Below are positions 9,989 through 15,034 of a DNA stretch of 64,000 nucleotides, one piece after another; within the stretch, counting starts at the first letter, position 1, and the number at the start of each line of letters is the position of its first letter. Position numbers and translations under genes: made by a program. This stretch comes from an uncultured Verrucomicrobiae bacterium (GTDB taxonomy: Bacteria; Verrucomicrobiota; Verrucomicrobiia; Chthoniobacterales; JAFAMB01), in NCBI GenBank assembly GCA_963813025.1, contig CAWEXO010000004.1, positions 32,001-96,000 on the forward strand, written 5' to 3'. The notes below the pieces were generated by a model that saw only the letters and a program-made list of their open reading frames with translations, was not told the origin of the DNA and ran no database searches.

Positions 9989-11590
9989 TTACAGTTCAAC
10001 GATGTCCAAGAGCACGACTCCGGATCGACTGATTGTATGCAATGTATGCCCCCAGTCAGGCTCCGTCTGCTGTCTTTGACGGCGTAAGCTTAAATAGATT
10101 CTTGGCGCTTCTCCTGCTATCGCCCGCCGCAATCTCACGGCCGGCTGGGGTGGTGCCAACATGAAATAATCGGTTAGCTCTGGCAACGCATTCGAAGAAT
10201 AAATGATTTCCGACACTCCGGAGGGTCGGTAATATTCGCGCACCCAGATTGCTGCCTCGCGAAAGGCAGTACCCCAATATTCCAGCTCAAATTGTCTATT
10301 TGCTTGTGCTAATCCTCCTGCAACCAGCCGATTGAAGTAAATATACTCATAAGGATGCAGCGCGCGCATATCCATTATCGTTACTAGGACCAGAAACAGA
10401 TAGAGCCCCAACGTTACCGTCTGAACTGTCCTGTTCCTAACCACTTCCAAAAACGTGCATAGACCAAACGCCGCAAGGATTATTAGTGGGGGAATCGTGA
10501 AAAGCACATGTCTGAAATTGTCGTAGAGCGGCACATGCTTTAAGACGATAACCATCAGCGGACCGGCAGCTGCCGCCAAAATTATGCTTACCGCGAGGGA
10601 GTGGCGGTCAAGCACAACCCGCCTTGACAGGACTGCGCGCAGCCCTGAGACCAGGCCCAATAGCCAACTTAGCAGAATGAACTCGGGAAGGCAATTGGTT
10701 AACAGTACTGGCAAATAACCGTAGGGAAGTTGTGTCCACTTAATTAAATGACCTCCAAAAAAGACCGTGCTGTTCCACGGAAAGCTGGAAAACTCCTTTA
10801 GCGCGACAAAGGGAGCGCCGATAAACGGGAGTCCGAAGAATGGTGCTGTGAGATGCCGCTTCCAAGCAAAGGGCCAGCAGAATAGCATAACTAACCACGC
10901 CAGAAAGATGATCGCGACCACATGCGTCGCACCCGCTGTTACGAGATACCTAGCCAACACTCGGCGATCCTTGCTTTTAATATTCCAGAGCACGGAACAA
11001 AAAAGGCTGCCAATTAGAACAGGAAATAACGCGAGAGCAGCAACGCGCATTCCTAGCGCGGCACCCAGAAACACACCAGTTTTGGTCGTATGGCTCCATT
11101 TCAACTCGGGAAAATCGATCGCGATTCGAACAATGTGGCAAAGGCTTAGGACGTAAAGCGCGGCAAATGGGATATCTTTTGGGTTAATGAATTCGTGGCC
11201 GTAGTAGACAGGTGTCAGCGTCAGAAACAGTGCGGAAATAAGCCCAACCATCGGACCGAAAGCTAGTGTTCCGAGCTGAAATGTTGCCCAGACGCCGAGC
11301 AATCCGAAGAGAGCACTTGTTAGATTGCGGCCTTCGAGCCAACCCAGGTGTGTTAAGCGTGTCACGGCTGCCGACAGAAGTTCGAACAAACCTCCGTAAA
11401 GCCGAAGTTCGTGCGTTCGCGCAGCCGCGTTGCGGCCAAGGCTCTCATAGAAATCCAGAACCGCTTTACCGTACTCATGTTGAACCGGTTGGTCCCAGCT
11501 CATGCCGTAATCACCAAAGCTGAGCAAAATCACGACGAGATGGCATGTTAACAAAAGGGCAAATGCCTGATAGATGCGTTTGCTCGACAT
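9989..11590 (-). CDS. Polytopic membrane glycosyltransferase, GT-C fold (ArnT/PMT/GT39-like)
   Basis: DYGMSWDQ first-loop acidic motif, YYGHEFINPKDIP, many TM segments, YIYFN...EYWG. Confidence 0.75.
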   Translation of the reverse strand: MSSKRIYQAFALLLTCHLVVILLSFGDYGMSWDQPVQHEYGKAVLDFYESLGRNAAARTHELRLYGGLFELLSAAVTRLTHLGWLEGRNLTSALFGLLGVWATFQLGTLAFGPMVGLISALFLTLTPVYYGHEFINPKDIPFAALYVLSLCHIVRIAIDFPELKWSHTTKTGVFLGAALGMRVAALALFPVLIGSLFCSVLWNIKSKDRRVLARYLVTAGATHVVAIIFLAWLVMLFCWPFAWKRHLTAPFFGLPFIGAPFVALKEFSSFPWNSTVFFGGHLIKWTQLPYGYLPVLLTNCLPEFILLSWLLGLVSGLRAVLSRRVVLDRHSLAVSIILAAAAGPLMVIVLKHVPLYDNFRHVLFTIPPLIILAAFGLCTFLEVVRNRTVQTVTLGLYLFLVLVTIMDMRALHPYEYIYFNRLVAGGLAQANRQFELEYWGTAFREAAIWVREYYRPSGVSEIIYSSNALPELTDYFMLAPPQPAVRLRRAIAGEAPRIYLSLRRQRQQTEPDWGHTLHTISRSGVVLLDIVEL

Positions 11591-12143
11591 GGCTCATTTC
11601 GGGTCAAAGTAGCCCTTAATCTTGTTGTTACCGCCGGCTTTGGTCGAGAAGATTATCAGCGCTGCCAGTGCTAGTGCCAGTGTGAGTTGAAGACTCTTTG
11701 CGTCCGGTTTCGCGTTTGTGCGGGAGAAGGGTGGCGGACTAGGTCGCGTGTCTTAGCGATTTCTTTGCGCACAGAGGTAACGGAGCACACAGAGGGCGCC
11801 TTAGCCGTTGATCGGGCTTTGATGCCACTCGTAAGCTGCGCTTTCGCCAAAATAAGAAGATAAGAGAGGCGTTAGAGGAGCGCCGCGAATTCTGGCGAAC
11901 CGCTCGTCCTTCGCTAAAGCTTTCGAATCGGTGAAAATCTGTGTTAATCGGTAGTTCACCTTTCTGGTTCGCGTTGTGCGGGTAGGACAAGCTTCCAGGT
12001 TGTCAGGTTTCAGGACCGGCAGGATGGATCTGCCAGACTTTTGAGTTATCTGTGGCCCACGCGCTGGAGCTATGGTTCGGAAGGGAGGTTAGAGACTTGT
12101 CCCAACACGTCTTTGATTCTGTGCCGGTAGATACGGTCTTGGA

Positions 12144-12149
12144 TGTCAA
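12144..12149 (-). promoter_or_regulatory. -35 box (TTGACA) of the IS110 circle-junction promoter; partner -10 TACCTT at 13443-13448
   Basis: Joining the ends gives TTGACA-TCCAAGACCGTATCTTG-TACCTT, a 17-bp spacer. Confidence 0.8.
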
Positions 12150-13156
12150 GGGCATTGCTTTAAGGAATGGCGGGCCAGATTAGGGTTGTAGGGTTGTTGG
12201 TGAGAGAGAACACCGAAGGCGATGTGCAGGAGTTTTCGCATGACGGCACCGCGGATAGCCAGGGAGTGGAGCTTGCGTGACTCGAGACCTGCGGCCCATT
12301 GCTGGATGGGTTTACACCAGCGGCGAGCAACGGCGGCCGGCAAATAGAGTGCTTTGCGCAGGAAAGGGTTGCCGATTTTGCACAGGGTGGTTTTGCCGTA
12401 GAGCGAGACACCGGAACGGAATTCAGAAGGAGTCAGCCCAGCATAGGCCGCCAACTGCCGAGCCGATTGGAACTCTTTACCGGCCAGCTCGGCCAGCAGC
12501 TTGGCGGCCGTGAGCTGGGCAATGCCGGGAATAGAGCACAGCAGTTGGCTTTGGCGGCTTAAAGCCTGATCAGCCGCGACTAAGCCGAAGATGGCCGACT
12601 CCAGCTGAGCGATTTCTTTCTTGAGCTGGGCGAGTCGTTGGCCACGCTGTTGGCTGACAAGCTCGGGCAGCGCAATTGGGTAAGGGTCTTTTTTCACCCG
12701 GTTCTGTTCCCGGATGAGCTCGCCAACCCGGCTTTCGCGCTCCCGCACCAGCAGTTTGAATTCTTCCTCAAGGGGGCGCAGCGGCCGAGTGGCCAGTGGT
12801 TTTCGCTCCAGACAAAACTGGGCAATGATGGCCGCATCAACCCGATCATTTTTGGTGCGGCGCAGGACCGAGAAAGCAAAGTATTTGACTTGGGCGGGAT
12901 TGAGCACGCTGACCGCCAAGCCTGCTTGGTGCAGAGCGGCGATCAATCTCTTCCCGTAGACCCCGGTGGCTTCCAGGGCGAAGTGGATCTGGGAGAGCGG
13001 CCAAGAGCGGGCCTGGAGTTGGGCTAAAAATGCTCCAATGCCGGTCGCATCATTGCTGAACTTTCCCCGCCACAGGCGAGTGCCATTCTTGGAGAGCAGG
13101 CAAAAGTCAAAGCTTGCTTTTGCCATATCAATACCCATGCAGTAGCGTTTTTTCAT
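12146..13156 (-). CDS. IS110 family DEDD recombinase (336 aa)
   Basis: GIDMAK (D), LEATG (E), KNDRVDA (D,D) and AGLTPSEFRSG (catalytic Ser); ATG at 13156. Confidence 0.96.
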   Translation of the reverse strand: MKKRYCMGIDMAKASFDFCLLSKNGTRLWRGKFSNDATGIGAFLAQLQARSWPLSQIHFALEATGVYGKRLIAALHQAGLAVSVLNPAQVKYFAFSVLRRTKNDRVDAAIIAQFCLERKPLATRPLRPLEEEFKLLVRERESRVGELIREQNRVKKDPYPIALPELVSQQRGQRLAQLKKEIAQLESAIFGLVAADQALSRQSQLLCSIPGIAQLTAAKLLAELAGKEFQSARQLAAYAGLTPSEFRSGVSLYGKTTLCKIGNPFLRKALYLPAAVARRWCKPIQQWAAGLESRKLHSLAIRGAVMRKLLHIAFGVLSHQQPYNPNLARHSLKQCP

Positions 13157-13214
13157 CAGACAGGAATTCGCGTTGAATTGGTTCTTTGTTTGATGAAGCG
13201 CTTGGGCGCGCGCC

Positions 13215-13436
13215 TGCTGACAGAGCCTTGTGAACACGGCTTATGTTCCAACCCTGTTTGGAACGGCCTAAGATACGGTACGGTCTTATGCAGGTGCGGC
13301 ACGAGGAAGGGTGGACTAATCTACCGGACAGGTTCTACCGACCTTTGGGCGAGGCAGTTTCCCACCCTCCTCGGCCAAGTTCTTCACCTCCAGAGTTCCG
13401 CCCTTGCGGGCGGCTTTAAAAGGGAAAAAAATTTGG
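13215..13436 (-). ncRNA. IS110 bridge RNA (boundaries approximate)
   Basis: 5' hairpin at 13398-13413. Target loop has CCTCGCCCA (13354-13346) and CCGGTAG (13327-13321). Donor loop has ACCGTATCTT (13279-13270) and ACAAG (13231-13227). Each guide pair is separated by a small hairpin. Confidence 0.85.
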
Positions 13437-13490
13437 TGGGGCAAGGTACAAGGGCGAAAACTTGTTTGAGCCGTCTGGAGCGGGTGGCTC

Positions 13491-15034
13491 GGTAGTGTCC
13501 GCTTTTTTGTGTGCGGGTCGATTGGTGCTTTGCTGTTTAACTCCGGGCAAGTTGTTCTGAGGACGTCAGCTCGAGCCGGCGAGACCGCCCTCCAGGCGGT
13601 CGGTCCAGCGCCGGGCGAGCAGTGAGCAACACGCCTTGGTGTTGTTCAAGTCCTCGGCAACAACTTGCCACTTTTCTCTTTTCTTTCTCCATCACAGGCC
13701 GGCTTCCGTTGCCAGAAAGCGCTCGCCAAATTGGATGGCAAACTGGGTGGCCGCCAATTTCCAGGTGATCGGCGGATTTTTCCATTTTTTAGTGATGTTG
13801 CGTAGGGCGAAATAAATCAACTTAGTGGCAGCTTCATCATTGGGAAAATGACCTCTGGTTTTGAGCACCTTGCGCAATTGCATGTGCAAACTTTCGAATC
13901 GCGTTGGTCGTGTAAATGATCCGGCGAATTTCCGTTGGATAAGCAAAAAAGGAACGACTTGGTCCCATACTCTTCGCCAGCCCTGGACCACAGCTGGTAG
14001 TTTTTTACCCAACTCGCTTGCGCAAATTCCTCCAACCGTTTGGCGGCTAGCTCCGCCGTCTCGGCGTTGTAAATCGCTTCAGTTCCCGAGCCACGGGCTG
14101 ATGCTGTTTCCAGTTGCAGAAGGATAGTGAGTTGCGAATCAGATGCACAATACAGGTCTGGATTTGGGTCTCGGAAAAACCGCGGTAATGGCTTCCGGAA
14201 AACCTTTAAGCCCATCGATGACCGCGACCAAAATATCCTCCACCCCGCGATGTTGAAGTTCGTTCATGACCGCTAGCCAGAACTTGGCTCCCTCGGTTTG
14301 CTGGATCCACAGACCCAGCACCTCTTTGGTCCCGTCCCGCTGGATACCCAAGGCGAGGTAAACCGCTTTGTTTTTCACCGTTCCTTCGTCGCGGATTTTG
14401 ACCCTAAAGCGTCAAAGAAGATCACCGGATACATCGTCTCCAGGGGCCGGTTCTGCCACTCCAGCACATCCTCCAGGACCGAATCAGTTACCGTGCTGAT
14501 CAGATCGGCCGAGACCTCCACTTTGTATTGCTCTTCCAGAAGCGCCTTGATCTCCCGCACCGTCATACCTTGGGCGTACATCGCGATGATCTTGGAATCG
14601 CAGCCACCAAAGCGCTTCTGCCCTTTGCGGATGAACTGCGGTTCAAACCTCCGAGAGCCGATCCCGCGATACTCAATCTCTAGCTTTCCATCCTCACTGA
14701 GCAGAGTCTTTTTGCTGGTTCCGTTCCGATGGTTTTCCCGCAGCTGGTCGGCTTCCCGCTTGGGGGCTTGGCCCTTCCCATAACCCAGATAATGGGTCAG
14801 TCTCGGCTCCAAGCACCCGTTCGTACAGGCGCTTGGTAAGTTGCTTCCATGATCCCTCCCGGACCGGTCAAATCTTCCGGCCGCTCGTAGCCCTTCATCA
14901 GCTCTTCAATGATCGCCGGATCGATCTCCGGCTTCCTGCTTTGCTTTCCCTGCTCTGCTTGCTCTTTTTTCTTGGTCACTTCCATCTTCTTATCTCAAGT
15001 TGTGTGACCCACACACAAAATTTAAGACACCCTC
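13491..15034 (-). mobile_element. IS256-family element (1544 bp) with imperfect terminal IRs and 8-bp TSD GGTGGCTC
   Basis: Ends GGTAGTGTCCGCTTTTTTGTGTGCGGGTC and GAGGGTGTCTTAAATTTTGTGTGTGGGTC; GGTGGCTC at 13483-13490 and 15035-15042. Confidence 0.9.
13692..14985 (-). pseudogene. IS256 transposase, multiply frameshifted
   Basis: Consecutive ORF fragments carry [47 protein letters not shown] and RGHFPNDEAATKLIY. Confidence 0.9.

What the first reader, a model, noticed from the sequence alone, without database searches (positions are those of the whole stretch)
12129..13452. Complete IS110 bridge-recombinase system with readable bridge RNA guides
Seen, all on the minus strand: an intact DEDD+Ser recombinase. 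The junctions TTTTCGCC-CT-TGTA and ACCGTAT-CT-ACCGGCAC define target TTTCGCC-CT-ACCGG and donor ACCGTAT-CT-TGTA. The non-coding left end has a 5' hairpin and a stem (13303-13314 with 13361-13372) enclosing CCTCGCCCA (6 of 9 match to the target left half), an AGGT/ACCT hairpin and CCGGTAG (exact reverse complement of CTACCGG). A second loop has ACCGTATCTT (10-nt donor match), a GTTCCAA/TTGGAAC hairpin and ACAAG (reverse complement of CTTGT). Known: this is the LTG-RTG-LDG-RDG layout of the IS621 bridge RNA. Inference: a potentially active, reprogrammable ortholog whose target and donor differ from those of IS621.
Basis: partly seen in the sequence, partly recalled or inferred. Interest (0 to 1): 0.9.

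Follow-up and report, generated by a model that had tools for sequence, protein, structure and literature searches.

The report
IS621-like jumping gene with guide RNA

Summary
Window 12129-13452 (minus strand) is a 1,324-bp IS110-group insertion sequence. It has a 336-aa DEDD+Ser recombinase (IS621 transposase, E 3e-46), a 294-nt left end, a 15-nt right end and a shared CT core.

The genome holds 7 full-length copies at 98-100% identity. They sit in a REP-like repeat whose uninterrupted form, TTTTCGCCCTACCGG, occurs 71 times.

The left end encodes an IS621-type bridge RNA: a 5' hairpin, a target loop and a donor loop.
- RTG matches 7/7, LDG 9/9 and RDG 9-on-7 with a 2-nt bulge, as in IS621. 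LTG matches only 6/9.
- In eight lineages the RTG tracks its own right target (34/40 non-core positions; 1 of 40,320 permutations does as well).
- Stems show compensatory changes.
- A covariance model built from this family finds the IS621 bridge RNA at its known place (18 bits, E about 1e-5 to 1e-4).

No RNA or circle-junction data were available, so activity is inferred.

Verdict: a new member of a known kind, of modest interest. It differs from IS621 in a longer RTG, and core position 9 is matched by LDG rather than LTG. The scan had already noted other IS110/bridge-RNA elements elsewhere in this genome, but none matching this sequence.

The parts
12129..13452 (-). Whole IS110-group element including both copies of the CT core (1,320 bp between the cores)
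   Evidence: Junctions compared with empty sites; 7 full-length copies at 98-100% identity
13451..13452 (-). Left copy of the CT core dinucleotide
   Evidence: Shared by the empty site, the left junction and the right junction. The bases on either side differ between target and donor, so the core is exactly 2 nt
12129..12130 (-). Right copy of the CT core dinucleotide
13453..13459 (-). Left target half-site (LT) TTTCGCC in the flanking REP-like repeat
12124..12128 (-). Right target half-site (RT) ACCGG in the flank
   Evidence: Conserved at 9 of 9 right junctions
12146..13156 (-). Recombinase gene, 336 aa plus stop: RuvC-like DEDD domain (D10, E62, D104, D107) and Tnp domain (S248, G249)
   Evidence: 5 of 5 scored genome copies have no internal stop
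13157..13450 (-). Non-coding left end (294 nt) that carries the bridge RNA gene
12131..12145 (-). Right end, only 15 nt after the stop codon; its last 7 nt are the left donor half-site (LD) ACCGTAT (12131-12137)
13446..13450 (-). Right donor half-site (RD) TGTAC
12144..12149 (-). TTGACA, the -35 box of the promoter that would form on the circle junction; it overlaps the stop codon
   Evidence: Computed junction TTGACA-17 nt-TACCTT. Same geometry as IS621 (TTGCAG-17-TATTAT, read). Junction promoter described for IS621 in PMC11208158
13443..13448 (-). TACCTT, a weak -10 box (3/6, with A2 and T6) at LE nt 3-8
   Evidence: no promoter-like site in the linear, integrated state
12138..12140 (-). AAG, forming a 3-bp sub-terminal inverted repeat with CTT at 13443-13445
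   Evidence: Read. It parallels the ATA/TAT of IS621 and the short STIR in PMC11208160
13398..13413 (-). 5' hairpin CCGCCC-GCAA-GGGCGG
   Evidence: stem invariant in all 10 aligned sequences
13297..13377 (-). Target-binding loop with its closing stem (5' arm about 13361-13377, 3' arm about 13297-13314)
   Evidence: 16 pairs, 5 with changes on both sides, 96% of cells paired
13346..13354 (-). LTG CCTCGCCCA: 6/9 to TTTCGCC-CT and 7/9 to the variant TCTCGCC-CT; the last base A is opposite core T
   Evidence: identical in 9 of 9 copies of this subfamily
13330..13344 (-). Inner hairpin of the target loop (AGGTC...GAACCT)
   Evidence: the AACCUGU motif aligns with IS621
13321..13327 (-). RTG CCGGTAG, the exact complement of CT-ACCGG
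13319..13320 (-). Handshake guide AU of the target loop, complementary to donor T7 and A6
   Evidence: Read against the definition in PMC11208158; same bases as wild-type IS621
13211..13296 (-). Donor-binding loop with its closing stem (CCTGC 13290-13294 with GCAGG 13213-13217)
   Evidence: 3 of 7 outer pairs change on both sides
13271..13279 (-). LDG ACCGTATCT: 9/9 to LD plus core, and T13270 extends the match to 10
13245..13264 (-). Inner hairpin of the donor loop (GTTCCAA-ACAGGG-TTGGAAC)
   Evidence: 4 of its 7 pairs, helices 5 and 6, change on both sides
13227..13235 (-). RDG GT-TC-ACAAG: 9 nt pairing with the 7 nt CTTGTAC around a 2-nt bulge
   Evidence: the same 9-on-7 scheme is stated for IS621 (PMC11208160; PMC11208158)
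13225..13226 (-). Handshake guide GC of the donor loop; G is complementary to target C7, C does not fit C6
   Evidence: Read against PMC11208158

Best explanation
Window 12129-13452 (minus strand) is an intact IS110-group insertion sequence of the IS621 type.

Proposed mechanism (inferred from IS621):
1. The element excises as a circle. Joining the right end to the left end brings a -35 box (TTGACA, in the right end) 17 nt from a -10 box (TACCTT, left-end nt 3-8).
2. Transcription from about 13436 yields a bridge RNA of about 225 nt, ending near 13208, and probably also the recombinase mRNA.
3. The RNA has a 5' hairpin and two internal loops. The first loop (LTG CCTCGCCCA, RTG CCGGTAG) pairs with the two strands of the target TTTCGCC-CT-ACCGG, which lies in an abundant REP-like repeat. 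The second loop (LDG ACCGTATCT, RDG GT..ACAAG) pairs with the circle junction ACCGTAT-CT-TGTAC.
4. A tetramer of the DEDD+Ser recombinase (D10, E62, D104, D107, S248) cuts after the CT core. It exchanges top and then bottom strands through a Holliday junction, helped by the handshake bases AU and G, and inserts the element with CT on each side.

Shown here: the anatomy, the copy number, the empty sites, homology of protein and RNA to IS621, and guide/target covariation. Inferred from IS621: expression, circle formation, the chemistry, and that the element is still active.
For: - Protein: both Pfam domains; IS621 transposase 8wt6 at E 3e-46 and ISCro4 9t56 at E 4.5e-44, with all five catalytic residues aligned.
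- Mobility: 7 full-length copies at 98-100% identity, plus deletion derivatives. 9 LE and 9 RE junctions share the same CT-flanked ends. There are 71 uninterrupted TTTTCGCCCTACCGG sites, including two with this copy's own flanks.
- RNA structure: the 5' hairpin and target-loop stem appear in the single-sequence fold (z -2.3). In the 10-sequence alignment, 40 pairs are 95.7% paired. 12 pairs change on both sides, against 5.7 +/- 1.6 in shuffles (0 of 500 reach it). Partners slid by 1-3 columns are only 43-50% paired.
- Guides: RTG 7/7, LDG 9/9 and RDG 7/7 with the IS621-type 2-nt bulge. The handshake AU fits donor T7/A6.
- Covariation: across 8 lineages, cognate RTG/RT pairs match 34 of 40 non-core positions, against a mean of 2.07 of 5 for non-cognate pairs. 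Only 1 of 40,320 permutations does as well. RT differs between lineages: CTACCGG, CTACCGT, CTCCGGG, CTTTGTG, CTCCAGG. LTG changes with LT in families E, F and L044.
- Homology of the RNA: model R1, built only from the Verrucomicrobial family, finds the IS621 left end at L049:316-491. The hit is on the right strand and full length (18.3 bits, E 1.7e-5 alone, 1.8e-4 among 7 loci). It aligns RTG, LDG and RDG.
- Promoter: the junction geometry is the same as in IS621.
Against: - LTG fits the commonest occupied target at only 6 of 9 positions (mismatches at positions 1, 2 and core T), and a better chance match (7/9) lies elsewhere in the LE. For IS621, perfect matches were strongly preferred and double mismatches poorly tolerated (PMC11208160).
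- The -10 box matches only 3/6, and the consensus scan finds no promoter in the integrated state.
- No RNA run holds the sequence, and the metagenome contigs that do show neither a circle junction nor an excised site, so expression and excision are untested.
- Family B's RTG fits its RT at only 3 of 5 non-core positions. Family D's left junction (CATTAAC-CG-TGTGT) fits neither its LTG nor its RDG.
- The IS621 hit of R1 scores only 18 bits, and the model's E-values are rough.
- The structure counted came from RNAalifold on the same alignment, and its 10 rows represent about six lineages, four of them from one genome.
Confidence: 0.9

Rival explanations
1. It is a genuine bridge-RNA IS110 element, but this lineage no longer moves. 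The LTG has drifted away from its target and the junction promoter is weak, so the copies are recent relics.
For: LTG fits 6/9 where IS621 tolerates mismatches poorly (PMC11208160). The -10 box fits 3/6. No RNA or circle evidence is available.
Against: There are 7 full-length copies at 98-100% identity, and 5 of 5 scored ORFs are intact. All 9 copies of the subfamily carry the same LTG, yet they sit in four LT variants, so that LTG was in place while the copies spread. A deletion derivative is present at two different loci.
Confidence: 0.2
2. The recombinase finds the REP-like repeat by protein-DNA or DNA-structure recognition. The matches in the left end are protein-binding copies of the end sequences, not RNA guides.
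For: The target lies in a structured, abundant repeat. A 2026 preprint on ISPpu10 (10.64898/2026.03.19.712850) reports a further layer of recognition beyond base pairing; I saw only its listing and the start of its abstract.
Against: RTG changes with RT in lineages whose targets are unrelated sequences. The matches lie in loops framed by stems with compensatory changes. The RNA aligns with the experimentally proven IS621 bridge RNA.
Confidence: 0.04
3. It belongs to the IS1111 group, with the guide RNA in the right end.
For: None found. Considered only because both groups share the recombinase domains.
Against: The right end is 15 nt and the left end 294 nt. The sub-terminal repeat is 3 bp, not 7-17 bp (definition in PMC11208160). 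The RNA model hits the left end.
Confidence: 0.01

Closest known systems
IS621 of Escherichia coli and its 177-nt bridge RNA (Durrant et al. 2024, PMC11208160; Hiraizumi et al. 2024, PMC11208158)
   Same: - Recombinase with two domains and all five catalytic residues.
- CT core, long left end and short right end, and a 3-bp sub-terminal repeat.
- A -35 box in the right end and a -10 box at left-end nt 3-8, 17 nt apart on the circle.
- RNA order: 5' hairpin, target loop, donor loop.
- AACCUGU motif before RTG, AU handshake after it, and 9-on-7 RDG pairing with a 2-nt bulge.
- REP-type target.
- The RNA is found by a model built from this family.
   Different: - About 35-38% protein identity.
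- Left end 294 nt, against 191 nt in IS621.
- RTG of 7 nt (core plus 5), where IS621 pairs 4 nt (G77-G80).
- Target TTTCGCC-CT-ACCGG, against ATCAGGC-CT-ACG.
- Donor differs at 2 of 14 positions.
- Core position 9 is matched by LDG (U) and not by LTG (A). In IS621, LTG pairs through U58, LDG stops at C130, and A131 pairs with the bulged U159.
- The LTG carries two further 5' mismatches.
ISCro4 transposase (PDB 9t56)
   Same: Second solved relative, E 4.5e-44 over residues 5-325.
   Different: Known to me only as a PDB entry name. I did not examine its RNA or its target.
ISPpu9 and ISPpu10 of Pseudomonas putida, REP-targeting IS110 elements (PMC12288879; 10.64898/2026.03.19.712850; search listing and start of abstracts only)
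   Same: Multi-copy IS110-family elements inserted at one position of repetitive extragenic sequences.
   Different: Different host phylum. I made no sequence comparison here.
Relatives in Verrucomicrobiae and Chthoniobacterales metagenome-assembled genomes (L021-L035, L039, L041)
   Same: 48-77% protein identity, the same RNA architecture and the same donor left half ACCGTAT-CT.
   Different: Different RTG/RT pairs (CTACCT, CTACCGT, CTCCGGG, CTTTGTG) and different LTG/LT. Family E keeps the IS621 arrangement at core position 9.

Membership tests
IS110 family insertion sequence | N-terminal RuvC-like DEDD domain with all four acidic residues | tested here: met
   PF01548 at 9e-32; D10, E62, D104 and D107 align with IS621 D11, E60, D102 and D105
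IS110 family insertion sequence | C-terminal Tnp domain with the catalytic serine followed by glycine | tested here: met
   PF02371 at 5e-22; S248-G249 align with IS621 S241-G242
IS110 family insertion sequence | Site-specific insertion with a shared core dinucleotide, without long terminal inverted repeats | tested here: met
   CT lies on both sides of 9 LE and 9 RE junctions and once in 71 empty sites. I saw no terminal inverted repeat beyond the 3-bp AAG/CTT (read; the repeat finder was not run)
IS110 group (as opposed to the IS1111 group) | Long left end, short right end, 2-3-bp sub-terminal repeat, RNA in the left end | tested here: met
   LE 294 nt, RE 15 nt; AAG/CTT; the RNA model hits the left end; definition from PMC11208160
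IS621-type bridge RNA | 5' hairpin followed by two stem-closed internal loops, supported by covariation | tested here: met
   12 of 40 pairs change on both sides (0 of 500 shuffles reach this); slid controls are 43-50% paired
IS621-type bridge RNA | First loop: the 5' side equals the top strand of the left target plus core; the 3' side complements the core plus right target | tested here: met
   RTG 7/7. LTG is weak at 6/9 (7/9 on the TCTCGCC variant), against 0-2 mismatches in most natural cases (PMC11208160).
IS621-type bridge RNA | Second loop: LDG equals the left donor plus core; RDG complements the core plus right donor discontiguously (9 nt on 7) | tested here: met
   LDG 9/9; RDG GT-TC-ACAAG on CTTGTAC (scheme)
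IS621-type bridge RNA | Guides covary with target and donor across orthologues | tested here: met
   RTG/RT match at 34 of 40 positions, 1 of 40,320 permutations does as well. The distal RDG pair is GT with AC here and AT with AT in family E
IS621-type bridge RNA | Sequence-and-structure homology to the IS621 RNA itself | tested here: met
   R1 hits L049:316-491 at 18.3 bits, E 1.7e-5 to 1.8e-4 (rough), with guides aligned. Rfam 15 gave no bridge-RNA match up to E 10
IS621-type bridge RNA | Handshake guides 3' of RTG and RDG complementary to position 7 of donor and target | tested here: met
   The A after RTG faces donor T7 and the G after RDG faces target C7 (definition). These bases are invariant in my set, so this is not a covariation test
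IS621-type bridge RNA | Sigma-70 promoter rebuilt on the RE-LE circle junction | tested here: inconclusive
   TTGACA-17-TACCTT in the same positions as IS621, but the -10 box fits only 3/6
IS621-type bridge RNA | The RNA is expressed, binds the recombinase and directs recombination | not testable with these tools
   No RNA holder was listed, and only fragmentary metagenome contigs were available

The most novel reading that the evidence does not exclude
This Verrucomicrobial clade uses a rearranged division of labour within the bridge RNA.

- The donor guide LDG pairs through core position 9, while the target guide LTG does not. This is the reverse of IS621, family E, family F and L044.
- Only six LTG bases (TCGCC-C) plus a 7-nt RTG specify the target.
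- This relaxed left guide would let one RNA use several sequence variants of the REP-like repeat: four LT variants are occupied among 9 copies.
- It could also explain how deletion derivatives lacking the catalytic D104/D107 region were mobilised in trans.

If true, it shows that only one of the two bottom-strand guides needs to read core position 9, and it offers a natural template for bridge RNAs with a short LTG and a long RTG.
Probability: 0.3. Interest if true: 0.45.

Novelty: new member of a known kind. Interest (0 to 1): 0.3.

Why it matters
Bridge recombinases are being developed as programmable tools for inserting DNA. This is a naturally multi-copy orthologue from a phylum for which I found no paper mentioning bridge RNAs: a full-text search for 'bridge RNA' with 'Verrucomicrobi' gave 0 papers.

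It would add one more enzyme/RNA pair with its own target and a natural 7-nt RTG. In IS621, an extended RTG improved specificity (PMC11208160).

For genome biology, it explains part of the repeat-associated IS load of this genome, which has 40 matches to the IS110 DEDD domain.

It opens no new question, because the mechanism and the family are already established.

Tried and rejected
- Rfam 15 scan of 11500-14000 at E up to 10: only chance matches (mir-657, PVT1_2) and no bridge-RNA family.
- blastn of the element against E. coli genomes: no match. I reached IS621 through a tblastn of plasmid records instead.
- Sequencing runs: no RNA holder was listed. Three DNA holders are kept as contigs only. 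Laying them gave short fragments and no informative joint, so nothing can be said about a circle, excision or expression.
- Promoter and terminator scan of the linear locus: no promoter-like site, and no terminator behind the RNA.
- A phylum-wide sample found the protein at E <= 1e-40 in only 2 of 401 genomes, one of them this genome, so it added one locus (L044).
- Family D (L029): I could not reconcile its left junction with its LTG or RDG. It was kept in the RTG test and left out of LTG conclusions.
- L042 (Deinococcus) lacks the target loop in the model alignment, and L040 lacks a right end. Neither was used for guide counts.
- LT variant usage: the better-fitting TCTCGCC variant is occupied 3 times against 4 for TTTCGCC, while the empty sites number 11 against 71. 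The odds ratio is 4.8 and Fisher p is 0.075, a hint only.
- One script crashed on a regular expression and was corrected. The regular expressions missed the LTG of one copy, which I read directly.
- An earlier-findings look-up by sequence found nothing for this element.
Full report
**What is there**

On the minus strand of window 12129-13452 lies a 1,324-bp element.
- An ORF at 12146-13156 encodes 336 aa. It carries the two Pfam domains of IS110-family recombinases: DEDD_Tnp_IS110 (9.3e-32) and Transposase_20 (5.1e-22).
- Against solved structures its best matches are the IS621 transposase (8wt6, E 3.2e-46, residues 5-325) and the ISCro4 transposase (9t56, E 4.5e-44).
- In that alignment D10, E62, D104, D107 and S248-G249 stand opposite IS621 D11, E60, D102, D105 and S241-G242. 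These are the residues that Hiraizumi et al. show to form the composite active site (PMC11208158, passages).
- The left end is 294 nt of non-coding DNA. The right end is 15 nt.

**Ends, target and mobility**

The window's own genome (16 contigs, 4.42 Mb, completeness 80%) holds 7 full-length copies at 98-100% identity, plus deleted and fragmentary ones.
- At 9 left and 9 right junctions the sequence reads ...TTTTCGCC-CT-TGTACC... and ...ACCGTAT-CT-ACCGG..., with variable sequence beyond.
- The uninterrupted form TTTTCGCCCTACCGG occurs 71 times. There are 260 sites with up to two mismatches, inside an abundant REP-like repeat.
- Two empty sites (C11:693979-693863 and C1:139171-139053) carry the same flanks as the window copy.
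- The target is therefore TTTCGCC-CT-ACCGG and the donor (circle junction) is ACCGTAT-CT-TGTAC. The shared core is exactly CT, because the neighbouring bases differ between target and donor.
- A 3-bp inverted repeat (AAG at 12138-12140, CTT at 13443-13445) flanks the 14-bp donor. IS621 has ATA/TAT in the same place. Durrant et al. describe such a short repeat for the IS110 group (PMC11208160, passages).

**The RNA**

Folding 13205-13425(-) gives -85.9 kcal/mol (z -2.3; 6 of 200 shuffles fold as well). It recovers the 5' hairpin and a long stem closing the first loop.

Relatives of the protein came from Verrucomicrobiae and Chthoniobacterales MAGs at 48-77% identity, and from Rhodanobacter at about 35%. 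One more came from a phylum sample in which only 2 of 401 genomes, this one included, had a match at E <= 1e-40.

I aligned ten left ends, four from this genome and six from four other genomes. RNAalifold returned a 5' hairpin, two stem-closed loops and an inner hairpin in each loop.

I kept 40 of its 47 pairs, dropping those that lay inside the guide segments. On these:
- 95.7% of cells pair.
- 12 pairs change on both sides, against 5.7 +/- 1.6 in shuffles (0 of 500 reach it).
- Partners slid by 1-3 columns pair in only 43-50% of cells.

Caveats: the structure was derived from the same alignment, and the rows are kin.

**The guides**

Durrant et al. define LTG and LDG as equal to the top strand of the left half-sites plus core. 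RTG and RDG complement the core plus the right half-sites. RDG pairs 9 nt on 7 discontiguously.

Here:

| Guide | Sequence | Position | Match |
|---|---|---|---|
| RTG | CCGGTAG | 13321-13327 | CT-ACCGG, 7/7 |
| LDG | ACCGTATCT | 13271-13279 | 9/9 (10 with the next T) |
| RDG | GT-TC-ACAAG | 13227-13235 | CTTGTAC, 7/7 around a 2-nt bulge |
| LTG | CCTCGCCCA | 13346-13354 | TTTCGCC-CT, 6/9 |

The LTG match alone is not above chance, because a 7/9 match lies elsewhere in the left end. Its position is nevertheless homologous to LTGs that fit 8/9 in family B and 7-8/9 in family E. The LTGs of family F (8-9/9) and of L044 (8/9) also fit well; they were located by best match rather than by alignment.

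The two bases after RTG (AU) complement donor T7 and A6. The G after RDG complements target C7. This matches the handshake guides of Hiraizumi et al.. These bases do not vary in my set.

The right target differs between lineages, and the RTG follows it:

| Lineage | Right target (RT) | RTG |
|---|---|---|
| this element | CTACCGG | CCGGTAG |
| L025 | CTACCGT | ACGGTAG |
| L029 | CTCCGGG | CCCGGAG |
| family E | CTTTGTG | CACAAAG |
| L044 | CTCCAGG | CCTGGAG |

- Family B, family F and IS621 fit at 3 of 5 non-core positions.
- Over eight lineages the cognate pairs match 34 of 40 non-core positions, against a non-cognate mean of 2.07 of 5. Only the true assignment, 1 of 40,320 permutations, reaches 34.
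- The distal RDG pair also follows the donor: GT with ...AC here, AT with ...AT in family E.

**Direct comparison with IS621**

I fetched an annotated IS621 copy from an E. coli plasmid record. Its junctions are ATCAGGC-CT-TGTAT and ACAGTAT-CT-ACG.

I built covariance model R1 only from the ten Verrucomicrobial sequences.
- It finds the IS621 left end at L049:316-491. The hit is on the coding strand and full length, at 18.3 bits, with E 1.7e-5 alone and 1.8e-4 among seven loci.
- It aligns AACCUGU-RTG-AGAU, the LDG and the RDG column for column.
- The score is modest and the model's E-values are rough.
- The model also finds the left ends of L044, L036, L037 and L040.
- Rfam 15 gave no bridge-RNA match for this region.

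**Promoter**

On the circle, TTGACA (12144-12149, overlapping the stop codon) would lie 17 nt from TACCTT (13443-13448). IS621 has TTGCAG-17-TATTAT at the same positions relative to the core. This is the junction promoter described for it. The -10 box here fits only 3/6, and no promoter-like site exists in the integrated state.

**What is not shown**

No RNA run holds the sequence. The three DNA holders are soil-metagenome contigs that give only fragments. Expression, circle formation and present activity are therefore inferred from copy number, copy identity, intact ORFs (5 of 5 scored) and the spread of a deletion derivative.

The LTG mismatches argue for caution. In IS621, perfect matches were strongly preferred. 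Yet all 9 copies of this subfamily carry the same LTG while sitting in four LT variants: TTTCGCC 4, TCTCGCC 3, GTTCGCC 1 and TTTCGCT 1.

**Differences from IS621**

- The RTG is 7 nt rather than 4.
- The left end is about 100 nt longer.
- Core position 9 is matched by LDG (U) and not by LTG (A). In IS621, LTG pairs through U58, LDG ends at C130, and A131 pairs with the bulged U159.
- Families E and F and L044 keep the IS621 arrangement. The window element, its sister subfamily and families B and C have the reverse. These are few lineages and partly kin, so I record this as a lead.

**Verdict**

The element is a new member of a known kind, an IS110-group, IS621-type bridge-RNA insertion sequence. 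Durrant et al. had already predicted thousands of such RNAs.

I found no paper that mentions both bridge RNA and Verrucomicrobia (0 papers). I did not open the supplements of PMC11208160, which may list this orthologue.

Papers:
- PMC11208160: passages.
- PMC11208158: passages and section 8.
- PMC13626964: abstract and outline only.
- All others: search listing only.

Noticed in passing
window 13692-14985 (minus strand): A Mutator/IS256-family transposase gene split over at least three ORFs in different frames (Pfam Transposase_mut positions 48-169, 179-247 and 302-378). It is a broken IS lying about 240 bp from the left flank of the IS110 copy.
   Followed up: partly
window about 6557, 17824, 22598, 63590 and 63807, and genome-wide: An abundant REP-like repeat contains the target. 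TTTTCGCCCTACCGG occurs 71 times exactly, and 180 sites fit NNNTCGCCCTACCGN, with several flank families. Variants ending CCGA (30 and 18 sites) would fit the RTG TCGGTAG of the decayed copy at C14:421123.
   Followed up: partly
G000:C15:123547-124653 (L010) and G000:C9:218135-219180 (L011): A sister subfamily (LTG CTTCGCCCA, 80-90% identity) is 1,008 bp long. It carries the same in-frame internal deletion at two different loci, removing roughly residues 83-185 including D104 and D107. This is a non-autonomous derivative that kept its bridge RNA and ends and was probably moved in trans. The C9 copy has a mutated RTG (CCGCTAG). C12:154605-155257 has a different, larger deletion.
   Followed up: partly
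G000:C4:5754-5894 (L019), outside the window: A fragment runs from the LTG to the end of the donor loop. It is fused exactly at the LTG-coding bases (CTTCGCC) to a REP-like repeat that ends in the same 7 bases. This could be a deletion by microhomology, or recombination at the LTG-coding DNA acting as a pseudo-target.
   Followed up: no
whole genome G000: There are 40 matches to the IS110 DEDD domain, falling into at least four score classes besides this element (for example about ten copies at 76 bits and about ten at 75 bits). The genome is heavily colonised by several IS110 lineages. Earlier notes of this scan describe some of them.
   Followed up: no
L035:1-110 (uncultured Verrucomicrobiae MAG, family E): The first 11 bases at the left junction (core plus right donor half-site and -10 box, CTTGTATCTTC) are present three times in tandem in this copy only.
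   Followed up: no
window 13346 and 13271, with relatives: Core position 9 (T) is matched by only one of the two bottom-strand guides. It is LDG in this element, its sister subfamily and families B and C. It is LTG in IS621, family E, family F and L044. The decayed copy at C14:421123 matches with neither.
   Followed up: partly
window 9989-11590 (minus strand): A 533-aa membrane protein with a weak PMT_2 (glycosyltransferase family 39-like) match, E 1.1e-6.
   Followed up: no
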